From: Escherichia coli
GTDB lineage: Bacteria > Pseudomonadota > Gammaproteobacteria > Enterobacterales > Enterobacteriaceae
DNA: 64,000 bases
Assembly (NCBI RefSeq): GCF_024502345.1
Contig: NZ_JALDNN010000001.1
Direction: 5' to 3' (one strand)
Positions within the stretch are counted from its first letter, which is position 1, and every line of letters starts with the position of its first letter. Shown here in pieces: positions 3,488 to 39,204 of the stretch. Under the pieces are notes generated by a model. That model ran no database searches. It saw only the letters and a list, made by a program, of their open reading frames with translations, and had not been told where the DNA came from. A program made the position numbers and the translations under genes.

Positions 3488-3574
3488 AACACATCAGATT
3501 TCCTGGTGTAACGAATTTTTTAAGTGCTTCTTGCTTAAGCAAGTTTCATCCCGACCCCCTCAGGGTCGGGATTT
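3488..3574 (+). ncRNA. dsrA: DsrA small regulatory RNA (Hfq-dependent regulator of rpoS and hns)
   Basis: Sequence AACACATCAGATTTCCTGGTGTAACGAATTTTTTAAGTGCTTCTTGCTTAAGCAAGTTTCATCCCGACCCCCTCAGGGTCGGGATTT matches DsrA as recalled, including the terminal intrinsic-terminator hairpin and T-run. Confidence 0.8.
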
Positions 3575-15568: not shown

Positions 15569-15782
15569 CGCGCACCTCGTGGCTGATTATGGACGGCGTT
15601 ATTGGCAAAGTGGAACAAGACTCACTCCCGGGTCAGCAAACTCGAAAAATTGACGCTGCCATTATTTGTGCTTTCGTTTTTTTCTATCCGCCAATAAACC
15701 CGTTTTTTTGTTGCTATTTAGCGCCTTTGTCTTATTGACTTACTGGTAGGCTTTGCTACCAGAAATTATCCAGGAGACGAAA
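15569..15782. promoter_or_regulatory. Divergent fliF / fliE promoter region (class 2, FlhDC-dependent, by established knowledge of the flagellar regulon)
   Basis: Intergenic region between divergently oriented fliF and fliE; individual sites not mapped here. Confidence 0.5.
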
Positions 15783-16097
15783 ATGTCAGCGATACAGGGG
15801 ATTGAAGGGGTTATCAGCCAGTTACAGGCTACGGCGATGAGTGCGCGTGCGCAGGATTCACTGCCGCAACCGACCATTAGTTTTGCCGGGCAGCTGCACG
15901 CCGCGCTCGATCGCATTAGCGATACACAAACAGCTGCCCGCACGCAGGCAGAAAAATTCACCCTCGGTGAACCCGGCGTGGCGTTAAACGATGTGATGAC
16001 CGATATGCAAAAAGCCTCAGTTTCTATGCAAATGGGGATTCAGGTGCGTAATAAGCTGGTGGCGGCGTATCAGGAAGTGATGTCCATGCAGGTGTAG
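15783..16097 (+). CDS. fliE: Flagellar hook-basal body protein FliE
   Basis: [16 protein letters not shown]... about 104 aa; ORF-track start is 10 codons upstream. Confidence 0.85.
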
Positions 16098-16299
16098 GTT
16101 TTGTAACCTGTTGTTAATTACTTCCAATCTCACCGCTTGGGGCATGGATGGGGCAAACTCACTCAATTTCTGGTTTAAAATGGATACCTGATCCTGAAAG
16201 TTTTCTGCCATCCACGATCCGTAAACGCGATAACATGTTTTGTCGGTGATGCTGCCAACTTACTGATTTAGTGTATGATGGTGTTTTTGAGGTGCTCCA

Positions 16300-16575
16300 G
16301 TGGCTTCTGTTTCTATCAGCTGTCCCTCCTGTTCAGCTACTGACGGGGTGGTGCGTAACGGCAAAAGCACCGCCGGACATCAGCGCTATCTCTGCTCTCA
16401 CTGCCGTAAAACATGGCAACTGCAGTTCACTTACACCGCTTCTCAACCCGGTACGCACCAGAAAATCATTGATATGGCCATGAATGGCGTTGGATGCCGG
16501 GCAACCGCCCGCATTATGGGCGTTGGCCTCAACACGATTTTCCGCCATTTAAAAAACTCAGGCCGCAGTCGGTAA
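16300..16575 (+). CDS. insA: IS1 InsA (transposition inhibitor / N-terminal part of transposase)
   Basis: 91-aa [46 protein letters not shown]... Confidence 0.9.
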
Positions 16576-16997
16576 CCTCGCGCATACAGCCGGGCAGTGA
16601 CGTCATCGTCTGCGCGGAAATGGACGAACAGTGGGGATACGTCGGGGCTAAATCGCGCCAGCGCTGGCTGTTTTACGCGTATGACAGGCTCCGGAAGACG
16701 GTTGTTGCGCACGTATTCGGTGAACGCACTATGGCGACGCTGGGGCGTCTTATGAGCCTGCTGTCACCCTTTGACGTGGTGATATGGATGACGGATGGCT
16801 GGCCGCTGTATGAATCCCGCCTGAAGGGAAAGCTGCACGTAATCAGCAAGCGATATACGCAGCGAATTGAGCGGCATAACCTGAATCTGAGGCAGCACCT
16901 GGCACGGCTGGGACGGAAGTCGCTGTCGTTCTCAAAATCGGTGGAGCTGCATGACAAAGTCATCGGGCATTATCTGAACATAAAACACTATCAATAA
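16494..16997 (+). CDS. insB: IS1 InsB frame (expressed as the InsAB' fusion)
   Basis: 167-aa ORF in the -1 frame relative to insA, inside IS1. Confidence 0.9.
16551..16557 (+). promoter_or_regulatory. IS1 programmed -1 ribosomal frameshift motif (AAAAAAC) generating the InsAB' transposase
   Basis: A6C heptamer at the insA/insB overlap. Confidence 0.75.
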
Positions 16998-17352
16998 GTT
17001 GGAGTCATTACCTTGCGTAAGATAGATGAGACAAACTGAGACGCATAATGGTTTGCAAGGCTCTAATACTTTGATGTTGAGGATGTGATGGGGCATGTAC
17101 GGGGCATAGTACAATGATGTCCATGCTGGTGTAGATAATCTCCAGGCTTATCCGGTGCGCCGTAAAACCCCGTCCTTCAGGGCAGGGATATAAGGCGTGG
17201 TTTTCCACCTAACCAGGTGTTTGCTGTTGTTCAATGTATTGGCGGATGACGGATATTGGCGCACCTCCGCAGCTACTGGCAAAATAGCCAGCACTCCACA
17301 AAACGCCTTTGTAGTAATACCTGACTGCAATATCTGGTCGATCTCGTCGCAG

Positions 17353-17640
17353 TCACCTACCCGATACGCCTTTGAGGCTGTTTACCAGACTGGATATCGC
17401 CAGTTTGGGAGGATAGTTAATTAACAAATGGACGTGATCTGGTTCGCCATCCATTTCAACCAGTTCAGCTTCAAAATCAGCACATACATTTGAAAAGTAA
17501 GTGCGTAGTTTTTCTGTCGCGTCATGGTCAAAAATCTGACGTCGGTATCTGGTGACAAAGACCAGGTGAACATGCATCAGGAAAACACAATGCCTTCCAC
17601 GCCGGATATCGGTTTCTTTTTTCACAGACCAAAGTATCAT
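17353..17640 (-). pseudogene. tnpA: IS200/IS605-family transposase TnpA, C-terminally truncated (HuH motif present, catalytic Tyr region missing)
   Basis: 95-aa ORF with the HuH motif HVHLL; IS200-type TnpA normally continues for about 50 more residues including the catalytic tyrosine. Confidence 0.6.
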
Positions 17641-17647
17641 TTGGCCT

Positions 17648-18856
17648 GTGAAACGACTACAAGCATTTAAATTCCAGTTAAGACCCGGTGGTCAACAGGA
17701 GCGTGAAATGAGGCGCTTCGCAGGCGCATGTCGTTTCGTTTTCAATCGTGCTCTGGCACGTCAGAATGAGAATCATGAGGCCGGTAATAAATACATCCCT
17801 TACGGGAAAATGGCTTCCTGGCTGGTTGAGTGGAAAAATGCCACTGAAACGCAATGGCTTAAAGATGCCCCGTCACAGCCATTGCAACAGTCACTGAAAG
17901 ACCTTGAGCGGGCTTACAAAAACTTCTTCCAGAATCGGGCTGCTTTTCCCCGATTCAAAAAGCGGGGACAGAATGATGTATTCCGCTACCCGCAGGGCGT
18001 TAAGCTCGATCAGGAAAACAGCCGTATTTTTCTGCCGAAACTGGGCTGGATGCGCTACCGGAACAGCCGTCAGGTCACGGGTGTTGTGAAAAATGTCACT
18101 GTCAGCCAGTCCTGCGGTAAGTGGTACATCAGTATTCAGACAGAAAGTGAAGTATCAACTCCGGTTCACCCTTCAGCATCAATGGTCGGGCTGGATGCTG
18201 GCGTGGCTAAACTCGCCACGCTGTCAGATGGCACAGTCTTTGAGCCTGTAAACAGTTTTCAGAAAAACCAGAAGAAGCTGGCGAGACTTCAGCGACAGTT
18301 AAGCCGCAAGGTCAAATTCAGCAACAACTGGCAGAAGCAGAAACGCAAAATACAGCGACTGCATTCCTGTATCGCAAATATCCGCAGGGACTACCTTCAC
18401 AAAGTCACAACGACCGTCAGCAAAAACCACGCAATGATAGTCATTGAGGATTTGAAGGTCAGCAACATGTCAAAGTCAGCAGCGGGTACGGTCAGCCAGC
18501 CGGGGCGCAATGTCCGGGCAAAATCAGGTTTAAACCGTTCGATACTGGATCAGGGCTGGTATGAAATGCGCCGCCAGCTTGAGTACAAGCAGCTCTGGCG
18601 TGGCGGTCAGGTGCTTGCTGTTCCGCCAGCGTACACAAGCCAGCGTTGCGCGTGCTGTGGTCATACAGCGAAAGAAAACCGCCTGTCACAAAGTAAATTC
18701 AGATGCCAGGTATGTGGATATACAGCGAACGCCGATGTAAATGGCGCTCGTAACATTTTAGCGGCGGGGCACGCCGTTCTTGCCTGTGGAGAGATGGTGC
18801 AGTCAGGCCGCCCGTTGAAGCAGGAACCCACCGAAATGATTCAGGCGACAGCCTGA
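17648..18856 (+). CDS. tnpB: IS200/IS605-family TnpB (OrfB): RuvC-like nuclease with C-terminal zinc finger, RNA-guided nuclease family
   Basis: 402-aa ORF; RuvC motifs (GLDAGV..., IVIEDLKV) and CxxC...CxxC zinc finger (CACCGH...CQVCGY); divergent from tnpA. Confidence 0.85.
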
Positions 18857-18895: not shown

Positions 18896-19621
18896 TCAAC
18901 AAACAGGTTGAATTAACTCCGCGCCCTGGTTTTTGACATTACCTACCGCGCGCGATACCGGGTGCCAGGTGAACTGGTTTGCTGGCACACAGCCGTTGGT
19001 AGCAATTTCTGATGCTTCTTTACCGCCAATCTCTTGCCGCATCCATTCCTGTGCAGCTTCTGGCGACAGAACCAGCGGGCGGCGGTCATGAATGTCTACC
19101 AGACCCTGGTCTGCTGCAGCAGTGACAATTAAAAATCCTTCGGCTTCGTCACCACGCTCAAATGGTGTGCTACCTATCGCGGCCATAAAAATAGGTTGTC
19201 CATCAGCACGATAGATAAAAAAAGGCTGTTTTTTGTCGCCTTCTTTTTTCCACTCAAACCAGCCATCGGCAAAACAGATTGCCCGACCATGTTGCCAGAG
19301 CGGTTTAAACATGCGACTGGTTGCGGCAGTTTCTACGCGGGCGTTAATCAGCGGCGGTTTATCCCACCATCCGGGAGCATATCCCCAGAAAACCGGATCC
19401 AGATGAAGGTGTTCATCACGTTCACTGAGCAGAAGAACTTTGGTTCCCGGCGCGACGTTGTATCTGCCAATGGGTTCGGGATCGTAGGGAATATCGCGTT
19501 CAATATCTTCCGCGAGAAGCGCAAGGTAATCTTCACGCGAGGGAATATCGCGTTCAATATCTTCCGCGAGAAGCGCAAGGTAATCTTCACGCGTTTGGGA
19601 TTGGGCAAAGCGTCCACACAT
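18896..19621 (-). CDS. yedK: SOS-response-associated peptidase YedK (abasic-site crosslinking, SRAP family), carrying an in-frame 18-aa tandem duplication
   Basis: MCGRFAQS... with N-terminal catalytic Cys2; REDYLALLAEDIERDIP unit present twice. Confidence 0.85.
   Translation of the reverse strand: MCGRFAQSQTREDYLALLAEDIERDIPSREDYLALLAEDIERDIPYDPEPIGRYNVAPGTKVLLLSERDEHLHLDPVFWGYAPGWWDKPPLINARVETAATSRMFKPLWQHGRAICFADGWFEWKKEGDKKQPFFIYRADGQPIFMAAIGSTPFERGDEAEGFLIVTAAADQGLVDIHDRRPLVLSPEAAQEWMRQEIGGKEASEIATNGCVPANQFTWHPVSRAVGNVKNQGAELIQPVC
19497..19604. repeat. Perfect 54-bp tandem duplication (2 copies) inside yedK
   Basis: AGGGAATATCGCGTTCAATATCTTCCGCGAGAAGCGCAAGGTAATCTTCACGCG occurs twice head-to-tail (19497-19550 and 19551-19604). 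Confidence 0.9.
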
Positions 19622-19727
19622 AGAAACCTCCTGAGATCATACTGAAAAGAATAGGAGAGGGGGCGGGTAAAATCTATGTGTCAGAGGCAACGATGTTCCC
19701 GCTGTGGGTCACAGCGGGAATGAGGGA

Positions 19728-38901: not shown

Positions 38902-38977
<76 letters not shown>

Positions 38978-39031
38978 GTTTAAAAGACATCGGCCTCAAG
39001 CGGATGTCTGGCTGAAAGGCCTGAAGAATTT

Positions 39032-39105
39032 GGCGCGTTAACAAAGCGGTTATGTAGCGGATTGCAAATCCGTCTAGTCCGGTTCGACTCCGGAACGCGC
39101 CTCCA
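39032..39105 (+). tRNA. cysT: tRNA-Cys (GCA anticodon)
   Basis: GGCGCGTTAACAAAGCGGTTATGTAGCGGATTGCAAATCCGTCTAGTCCGGTTCGACTCCGGAACGCGCCTCCA. Confidence 0.9.
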
Positions 39106-39117
39106 CTTTCTTCCCGA

Positions 39118-39204
39118 GCCCGGATGGTGGAATCGGTAGACACAAGGGATTTAAAATCCCTCGGCGTTCGCGCTGTGTGGGTTCAAGTCCCACTCCGGGT
39201 ACCA
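39118..39204 (+). tRNA. leuZ: tRNA-Leu (UAA anticodon), class II tRNA with long variable arm; integration site of the downstream island
   Basis: GCCCGGATGGTGGAATCGGTAGACACAAGGGATTTAAAATCCCTCGGCGTTCGCGCTGTGTGGGTTCAAGTCCCACTCCGGGTACCA. Confidence 0.9.

What the first reader, a model, noticed from the sequence alone, without database searches (positions are those of the whole stretch)
19497..19604. Perfect in-frame 54-bp tandem duplication in the N-terminal region of yedK
The duplication repeats 18 residues, REDYLALLAEDIERDIP plus one residue, just downstream of the catalytic N-terminal Cys2 of this abasic-site-crosslinking SRAP protein. Perfect identity of the two copies implies a recent event. 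It could alter DNA binding or be a slippage-prone hypervariable site.
Basis: seen in the sequence. Interest (0 to 1): 0.45.

Follow-up and report, generated by a model that had tools for sequence, protein, structure and literature searches.

The report
Rare in-frame duplication in yedK
One uncommon E. coli lineage carries an exact 54-base tandem duplication that repeats an 18-residue helix-and-loop near the start of the DNA-repair protein YedK; it is a real inherited allele, but it looks like an ordinary rare mutation rather than a variable or newly functional site.

Summary
The duplication is real. Two identical, adjacent 54-bp copies lie at window 19486-19593, 11 bp from the stated coordinates. 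They sit in frame inside yedK (minus strand, 18896-19621, 241 aa) and repeat residues 11-28. The junction creates one new codon, TCG (Ser28).

Removing one copy gives exactly the common 223-aa allele of E. coli 042. The junction is absent from 5,426 complete E. coli genomes, from JGI metagenomes and from the GTDB species representatives.

The exact 241-aa protein is already in NCBI (WP_256632771.1). It occurs in at least three assemblies, including a short-read isolate and a metagenome contig whose flanks differ. It is therefore not an assembly artefact.

No three-copy allele exists, and the duplication is not found on nine other YedK protein alleles. It is therefore not a hypervariable site.

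The duplicated segment is the least conserved part of the SRAP domain and the most variable in length. It contains none of the published DNA-contact or catalytic residues. AlphaFold2 keeps the SRAP core (TM 0.93-0.96 to YedK crystal structures) but is unsure how the two helix copies pack.

Best reading: a rare, single-origin insertion allele, probably tolerated. Its functional effect is untested. Interest is low.

The parts
18896..19621 (-). yedK (SRAP / abasic-site processing protein) coding sequence, 241 codons plus stop, duplication-bearing allele
   Evidence: ORF list. Pfam SRAP 171.8 bits, covering residues 1-229. Matches YedK PDB chains at E about 1e-146 to 1e-154. The exact sequence is WP_256632771.1 / MCQ7030225.1.
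19540..19593 (-). Copy 1 of the 54-bp unit, the 5' copy in gene orientation. It encodes residues 11-27 plus the first base of junction codon 28.
   Evidence: TRF and direct comparison, 100% identical to copy 2. It has no counterpart in single-copy genomes, where MAFFT places the 54-bp gap; which copy is called 'new' is arbitrary.
19486..19539 (-). Copy 2 of the 54-bp unit, the 3' copy in gene orientation. It encodes residues 29-45 plus parts of codons 28 and 46.
   Evidence: In protein alignments this copy aligns with the native residues 11-28 of homologues.
19538..19540 (-). Junction codon TCG (Ser28), the only new codon made by the duplication. The native codons here are ACG (Thr10) upstream and TAC (Tyr28) downstream.
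   Evidence: Codon layout printed.
19616..19621 (-). ATG-TGT: initiator Met and catalytic Cys2, unchanged by the duplication
   Evidence: Sequence. M1 and C2 are invariant in 81 homologues. The role of Cys2 is taken from PMC6821365.
19627..19632 (-). Shine-Dalgarno AGGAGG, 5 nt upstream of the ATG, unchanged
   Evidence: Read from the sequence. Predicted accessibility of the translation-initiation region is similar with one or two copies.

Best explanation
This is a genuine, rare, vertically inherited allele of yedK. A single 54-bp tandem duplication arose on the common 223-aa YedK allele found in E. coli 042 (WP_000334581.1). The likely origin is a replication or sister-strand misalignment event, with no microhomology at the junction.

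In the protein it acts as an 18-residue insertion that repeats helix alpha-1 and the loop after it, between strand beta-1 (which carries catalytic Cys2) and strand beta-2.

That segment is the least conserved part of the SRAP domain and the most variable in length, and it makes no reported contact with DNA. The catalytic core (Cys2, Asn75, Glu105, His160 in native numbering) and the DNA groove are therefore most likely preserved. One of the two helix copies probably packs in the native place while the other forms a surface excursion.

The expected phenotype is neutral to mildly destabilising. A gain of function or a copy-number switch is not expected.

Shown: existence, exact anatomy, rarity, parent allele, presence in independent assemblies, and retention of all SRAP signature residues.

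Inferred: the mutational mechanism, structural tolerance and the absence of a phenotype.

The confidence given (0.7) is a blend: about 0.95 that this is a real, rare, single-origin inherited allele, and about 0.55-0.6 that the protein tolerates it.
For: - Anatomy.
- Parent allele: deleting one copy gives a protein present on at least 1000 contigs and identical to E. coli 042 YedK. The 901-bp yedK region is 99.9% identical to genomes of the 042 group, all of them single copy (record span 847 = 901 - 54).
- Rarity: the 27+27 junction 54-mer has no hit in 5,426 complete E. coli genomes. The same region does match 5,371 genomes when single-copy matches are allowed. The 28-mer junction has no hit in JGI metagenomes or GTDB representatives.
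- Reality: the exact protein occurs in NCBI records (4.74-Mb contig), in GCA_050022275.1 and in ENA ERZ19695678. L001 is 100% identical to the window over 8,685 bp.
- Single origin: there is no 3-copy form and no 2-copy form on nine other alleles. The window and L002 share the same IS1 junction and are closer to each other (99.4%) than to any complete genome (about 99.1%).
- Tolerance, sequence evidence: the segment between F5 and the invariant Asn ranges from 25 to 37 residues in 80 homologues. Gaps concentrate at native residues 25-28, and column identity there is low.
- Tolerance, published contacts: no DNA-contact or catalytic residue lies in 11-28.
- Tolerance, model: AF2 with an 81-sequence alignment gives pLDDT 86.2 and pTM 0.86. 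Most blocks from residue 51 on score 84-97, with one block (151-160) at 73. Beta-1 (E4-7) and beta-2 (E53-56) are retained. The model superposes on YedK crystal structures at target-normalised TM 0.93-0.96 and rmsd 1.7-1.9 A.
- Family score: Pfam SRAP drops only from 176.5 to 171.8 bits.
Against: - AF2 confidence over residues 11-50 is only 48-63, so the placement of both helix copies is unresolved.
- At 49 residues, the beta-1 to beta-2 connection lies well outside the natural 25-37 range. That could equally mean such lengths are selected against.
- A second amphipathic helix (Y, L, L, L, I, I) with nowhere to pack could promote misfolding or aggregation.
- The junction has no microhomology, which is atypical for simple slippage.
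- The second haplotype comes from a MEGAHIT metagenome contig at about 8x coverage, and strain chimerism cannot be excluded.
- No functional data exist.
Confidence: 0.7

Rival explanations
1. Loss-of-function allele. The extra helix and loop disrupt packing next to beta-1 and misplace or destabilise the N-terminal Cys2, so yedK is effectively a pseudogene in this lineage even though the reading frame is intact.
For: AF2 pLDDT is 48-63 across residues 11-50, including the copy that aligns with native alpha-1. The segment length of 49 lies far outside the 25-37 seen in 80 homologues. Alpha-1 is one of four helices flanking the beta-barrel core, and beta-1/beta-2 belong to the sheet that positions Cys2. 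The allele is very rare, as expected if it is mildly deleterious. The surrounding region shows other signs of decay: an IS1-associated deletion and a truncated tnpA.
Against: The core of the model is confident and superposes on the crystal structures, with beta-1 and beta-2 retained. The insertion point coincides with the naturally indel-prone loop. All catalytic and DNA-binding residues are intact. The allele has persisted in at least three assemblies without a second disabling mutation.
Confidence: 0.3
2. Assembly or sequencing artefact: the two copies are a mis-assembly of a single-copy locus.
For: Only the general point that tandem repeats can be mis-assembled. The source reads could not be inspected.
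Against: The identical junction and 241-aa product occur in three separately produced assemblies: a 4.74-Mb contig, a 155-kb short-read contig and a k141 metagenome contig seen in two samples. By inference, the whole 108-bp array is shorter than a typical Illumina read and shorter than k=141, so single reads or k-mers span it.
Confidence: 0.02
3. Hypervariable or contingency site: the copy number of the 54-bp unit changes frequently by slippage and produces functional heterogeneity in YedK.
For: Perfect tandem repeats are intrinsically prone to RecA-independent deletion and expansion (established knowledge, e.g. work from the Lovett laboratory; not tested here). The unit has weak internal periodicity: TRF reports period 25 at 64% match.
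Against: None of 5,426 complete genomes carries the junction. There is no 3-copy allele and no 2-copy form on nine other common protein alleles. No microhomology or inverted repeat exists that would make the breakpoints recurrent. Among homologues in the top 120 clusters, none has an insertion here.
Confidence: 0.03
4. Adaptive change of function: the duplicated helix alters YedK activity, for example crosslink stability or reversal, oligomerisation or partner binding, and is selected in this lineage.
For: The allele persists on two flanking haplotypes that differ at 32 sites in 5.4 kb. If the metagenome contig is not chimeric, this means the allele survived recombination or divergence despite the expected instability of tandem repeats.
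Against: The allele is extremely rare. The segment has no known functional contacts. The literature I could search describes no such variant. Persistence over this timescale is also compatible with neutrality.
Confidence: 0.05

Closest known systems
WP_256632771.1 / MCQ7030225.1, 'SOS response-associated peptidase [Escherichia coli]' (NCBI)
   Same: Identical over all 241 residues, including the duplication.
   Different: Nothing differs. The record carries only the generic family name and does not flag the duplication.
E. coli 042 YedK, WP_000334581.1 (223 aa), the parent allele
   Same: Identical to the window protein once one 18-residue copy is removed. The gene neighbourhood is the same: yedE-yedF-yedK followed by IS200/IS605 TnpB.
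   Different: It lacks the 54-bp duplication. The window's flanks differ from strain 042 by 0.4-1.4%.
E. coli K-12 YedK (P76318; PDB 2ICU, 6NUA, 6NUH, 6KBS, 6KBU, 8D2M)
   Same: Same protein and fold. The sequence alignment is essentially identical outside the insertion. The AF2 model superposes at target-normalised TM 0.93-0.96. Cys2, Asn75, Glu105 and His160, together with DNA-groove residues such as Trp67, Arg77, Thr149 and Arg162, are conserved in the alignments.
   Different: An 18-residue duplication of residues 11-28, four substitutions in the C-terminal third, and one extra C-terminal Cys.
Human HMCES SRAP domain (PDB 5KO9, 6OE7 and related entries)
   Same: Same SRAP fold and N-terminal Cys2 chemistry. 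The model matches at TM about 0.70-0.75.
   Different: Only about 26% identity. HMCES has extra C-terminal regions and no internal duplication.
Short in-frame tandem duplications produced by replication misalignment in bacterial genes (general mutational class; my own knowledge)
   Same: Head-to-tail exact copies, a length that is a multiple of three, and a single new junction codon.
   Different: This junction has no microhomology. Classical slippage duplications usually have a few shared bases at the junction.

Membership tests
SRAP (SOS response-associated peptidase; Pfam PF02586) / YedK | Significant match to the SRAP domain profile over its full length | tested here: met
   PF02586 scores 171.8 bits against a cut-off of 27.1, covering profile positions 1-214 of 214. 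The parent scores 176.5 bits.
SRAP (SOS response-associated peptidase; Pfam PF02586) / YedK | Cysteine directly after the initiator Met (Cys2), which becomes the N-terminal nucleophile | tested here: met
   The sequence starts MCGRF. M1 and C2 are invariant in 81 homologues.
SRAP (SOS response-associated peptidase; Pfam PF02586) / YedK | Conserved active-site residues Asn75, Glu105 and His160, plus DNA-groove residues Arg77, Thr149, Arg162 and Trp67/68 (K-12 numbering) | tested here: met
   All are present at +18 numbering (N93, E123, H178, R95, T167, R180, W85, W86) and fall in invariant or nearly invariant columns. Their roles are taken from PMC6821365.
SRAP (SOS response-associated peptidase; Pfam PF02586) / YedK | SRAP fold: a beta-barrel core plus a flat sheet that presents the N-terminus | tested here: met
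   This is a prediction, not a solved structure. AF2 gives pLDDT 86.2. Foldseek against YedK crystal structures gives E about 1e-41, target-normalised TM 0.93-0.96 and rmsd about 1.8 A. Residues 11-50 have low confidence.
SRAP (SOS response-associated peptidase; Pfam PF02586) / YedK | Forms a thiazolidine DNA-protein crosslink with abasic sites in ssDNA | not testable with these tools
   This needs biochemistry with the 241-aa protein.
Contingency locus / hypervariable intragenic tandem repeat | Copy number differs among strains or within populations | tested here: not met
   Only 1-copy and 2-copy states were seen. The 2-copy state is in 0 of 5,426 complete genomes. No 3-copy protein exists in the collection. 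Heterogeneity within a population could not be tested without reads.
Contingency locus / hypervariable intragenic tandem repeat | The same repeat change recurs on independent genetic backgrounds | tested here: not met
   The duplication is found only on one protein allele. The 2-copy versions of nine other alleles are absent. The two carrier haplotypes share a rare IS1 junction, which indicates common descent.

The most novel reading that the evidence does not exclude
The duplicated alpha-1 helix and loop give YedK a changed property, such as altered stability or self-reversal of the abasic-site crosslink, or a new self-association surface. On this reading the allele is maintained by selection in a poorly sampled E. 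coli lineage, which would make it a natural separation-of-function variant of an SRAP protein.
Probability: 0.05. Interest if true: 0.45.

Novelty: already known. Interest (0 to 1): 0.15.

Why it matters
It matters little for biology at large. YedK is a well-characterised SRAP protein, and this exact allele is already in RefSeq under the generic family name.

Its modest value has three parts:
- It is a natural 18-residue insertion that could test how much the beta-1 to beta-2 connection of the SRAP fold tolerates.
- It is a specific lineage marker. The junction sequence identifies a rare E. coli clone, and its protein is encoded in a metagenome assembly as well.
- It is a clean example of an in-frame tandem duplication with no junction microhomology.

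If the protein turned out to have altered crosslinking or reversal behaviour, it would be a useful tool variant for SRAP/HMCES mechanism studies.

Tried and rejected
- A 70-bp junction query could not separate alleles, because BLAST joins two overlapping pieces on single-copy genomes (record span 54 bp, 2 pieces). I replaced it with a 27+27 design that single-copy genomes cannot seed.
- The first AF2 run used 47 close homologues (at least 76% identical) and failed globally (pLDDT 33). That reflects a shallow alignment and says nothing about the duplication. I repeated it with 81 diverse sequences taken from the representative search.
- Exact junction scans of JGI metagenomes and GTDB representatives found nothing.
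- I looked for inverted repeats or microhomology that might explain the breakpoints and found none.
- I tested whether the duplication changes the predicted mRNA structure around the ribosome-binding site. The Shine-Dalgarno sequence is equally paired in both alleles, and start-codon accessibility is within the same range.
- I considered a link to the adjacent RNA-guided nuclease TnpB and rejected it. The same TnpB sits next to single-copy yedK in strains 042 and TUM1880.
- Literature searches for yedK variants or phenotypes found no description of this allele. The structure paper names no residue in positions 11-28.
- Independent recurrence on a second haplotype (L002) was considered. The shared IS1 junction, together with a mosaic pattern of standing polymorphisms (17 of 32 L002 variants are shared with 042 or TUM1880), favours one origin followed by flanking recombination, or a chimeric metagenome consensus.

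Full report
**Observation.**
Tandem Repeats Finder reports a period-54 array with 2.0 copies, 100% matches and no indels at window 19486-19593. A direct scan confirms that w[i]=w[i+54] holds for exactly 54 consecutive positions. The copies are therefore 19486-19539 and 19540-19593, and no shared base extends the repeat at either end, so there is no junction microhomology.

Over it only 46 of 54 positions match.

This is the only perfect tandem duplication of 20 bp or more in the 64-kb window. A chance origin is out of the question.

**The gene.**
The repeat lies in a 241-codon minus-strand ORF, 18896-19621. The product reads MCGRFAQSQT | REDYLALLAEDIERDIPS | REDYLALLAEDIERDIPY | DPEP... The unit starts at the second base of codon 10, so the junction creates a single new codon, TCG (Ser28, window 19538-19540). 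Everything else is an exact repeat of native residues 11-27.

The protein is YedK:
- Pfam SRAP (PF02586) scores 171.8 bits over the full profile.
- Matches to the YedK PDB chains have E-values of 1e-146 to 1e-154.

The neighbours are yedF and yedE upstream. About 40 bp downstream of the stop codon lies an IS200/IS605 element with an intact TnpB and a truncated tnpA.

**What it was derived from.**
Deleting one copy gives a 223-aa protein that occurs on at least 1000 contigs. It is identical to YedK of E. coli 042, WP_000334581.1.

The 901-bp yedK region is 99.9% identical to genomes of the 042 group. Each of those aligns in two overlapping pieces spanning 847 bp (901 minus 54), which means they are single copy. 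A four-way alignment shows a clean 54-bp gap in 042 and TUM1880.

**How common it is.**
A first junction query of 70 bp was uninformative. BLAST joins two half-matches on single-copy genomes into one 'place'.

I then used a 54-mer with 27 bases on each side of the junction. A single-copy genome cannot seed this with a 28-base word. It found nothing in 5,426 complete E. coli genomes, although the underlying sequence is present in 5,371 of them.

A 28-mer junction pattern found nothing in the JGI metagenome contigs or in the GTDB species-representative genomes.

**Whether it is real.**
The exact 241-aa protein is already in NCBI as WP_256632771.1 / MCQ7030225.1, on a 4.74-Mb contig. It is also encoded in two other places:
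- A 155-kb contig of GCA_050022275.1 (locus L001).
- A 5.4-kb k141 MEGAHIT contig of ENA assembly ERZ19695678, seen in two samples (locus L002).

L001 is 100% identical to the window over 8,685 bp. Its contig ends inside IS1, where the window continues, so it is a separate assembly. The 108-bp array is shorter than ordinary short reads and shorter than k=141. An assembly artefact is therefore effectively excluded.

**One origin or many.**
L002 carries the identical duplication and protein but differs from the window at 32 positions in 5.4 kb. Nine of these fall within 86 bp of the yedF-yedK intergenic region, and the nearest is 31 bp from the repeat. That intergenic version resembles the type found in O145:H28 strains (99.4%).

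At 17 of the 32 sites the L002 base is shared with 042 or TUM1880, so these are standing polymorphisms arranged as a mosaic.

Even so, the window and L002 share the same IS1 junction. They are closer to each other (99.4%) than either is to any complete genome (about 99.1%).

A look-up of the three-copy protein, and of two-copy versions of nine other YedK alleles (the K-12 and TUM1880 proteins plus seven other members of the same protein cluster), found none among about 15 billion proteins.

The parsimonious reading is a single origin in a poorly sampled lineage, followed by flanking recombination. Alternatively, the metagenome consensus may be partly chimeric, which I cannot resolve without reads. 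Nothing supports a recurrent or hypervariable site.

**Age.**
Perfect identity of two 54-bp copies says little. At the published E. coli mutation rate of roughly 2e-10 per base per generation (my own knowledge), 108 bp would stay identical for tens of millions of generations.

Rarity is the better argument that the event is evolutionarily young. Its presence in three assemblies shows that it is nonetheless a transmitted allele.

**Effect on the protein: sequence and published contacts.**
In the crystal structures, Cys2 sits at the start of beta-1 in a flat sheet (beta-1, 2, 7, 8, 12). That sheet places it in a positively charged ssDNA groove, and four helices flank the beta-barrel core.

The residues reported to contact DNA or to stabilise the thiazolidine linkage are C2, R4, P40, W67, W68, K70, N75, R77, T80, S84, R85, W103, E105, W106, K113, I147, T149, H160, R162, P164, R206, N210 and V211. 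None lies in residues 11-28, and the paper names no residue from that segment.

In an alignment of 81 SRAP proteins, 18 of them enterobacterial sequences at least 76% identical to the window protein and the rest down to about 30% identity, the stretch between F5 and the invariant Asn (N37 natively) behaves as follows:
- It is poorly conserved.
- Its length ranges from 25 to 37 residues, with a mode of 31.
- Gaps concentrate at native residues 25-28, which is one of the two equivalent insertion points of the duplication.

The duplicated allele has 49 residues in this stretch, which is outside the natural range.

**Effect on the protein: structure prediction.**
AlphaFold2 with a shallow alignment failed globally (pLDDT 33) and is uninformative.

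With the 81-sequence alignment the model has pLDDT 86.2 and pTM 0.86. Most ten-residue blocks from residue 51 on score 84-97, with one block (151-160) at 73. Beta-1 (residues 4-7) and beta-2 (53-56) are retained, and each copy forms a short helix (13-18 and 29-36). Confidence across residues 11-50 is only 48-63.

The model superposes on YedK crystal structures with target-normalised TM 0.93-0.96 and rmsd about 1.8 A.

I infer that the SRAP core and active site survive, and that one helix copy packs natively while the other is a surface excursion. Destabilisation or loss of function remains a serious alternative, which I put at about 0.3.

Predicted mRNA structure around the ribosome-binding site is not materially changed.

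**Mechanism of origin.**
There is no junction microhomology and no nearby inverted repeat. Only a weak internal 25-bp periodicity is present.

The event is best described as a simple head-to-tail duplication from replication or sister-strand misalignment. This is an inference.

The adjacent TnpB is not implicated, because the same element flanks single-copy yedK in 042 and TUM1880.

**Comparison with what is known, and verdict.**
This is YedK, a well-studied SRAP protein, carrying a rare natural insertion allele whose sequence is already deposited. All testable family criteria are met, and only the crosslinking chemistry itself is untestable here. The criteria for a contingency or hypervariable repeat were tested and not met.

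The literature I could search does not mention this allele.

It is not supported on hypervariability, and it is unsupported on DNA binding. Interest is low.

Noticed in passing
window 17353-18856: An IS200/IS605-type element lies 40 bp beyond the yedK stop codon. It has an intact 402-aa TnpB (RNA-guided nuclease family; PF01385, PF07282, PF12323) at 17648-18856 (+) and a truncated 95-aa Y1 tnpA at 17353-17640 (-). E. coli 042 and TUM1880 have the same arrangement next to single-copy yedK.
   Followed up: partly
window 16100-17000: IS1 (insA/insB ORFs at 16300-16997) sits directly after fliE (15753-16097). In TUM1880 the genes emrE, ybcL and ybcM lie between fliE and the IS200/IS605 remnant, and 042 has ybcL and ybcM in the corresponding position. 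The 042 ybcL/ybcM segment has no match anywhere in the window; emrE was not searched for directly. This points to an IS1-associated deletion. The metagenome contig L002 shares the same IS1 junction, and the short-read contig L001 ends inside this IS1.
   Followed up: partly
window 19624-19709 (yedF-yedK intergenic region): The two duplication-bearing sequences (window and L002) differ at 9 positions within 86 bp here, about 10% divergence, against about 0.5% elsewhere. The L002 version resembles the allele of O145:H28-type strains. Either two old allelic classes of the yedK promoter region exist, or the metagenome assembly is chimeric.
   Followed up: partly
protein P0246 (from the representative search): A 3,141-residue predicted protein matches YedK in 21 separate stretches at 31% identity. 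It appears to be a giant protein made of many SRAP-like repeats.
   Followed up: no
window 3488-3574 and 38902-39201: A DsrA small RNA (Rfam, 102.5 bits) and a cluster of three tRNA genes. These are ordinary E. coli features.
   Followed up: no
window 18896-18901 (yedK 3' end): This allele class ends ...QPVC (223 aa without the duplication). That is one Cys longer than the 222-aa K-12 protein. Both length classes are common among E. coli YedK sequences.
   Followed up: no
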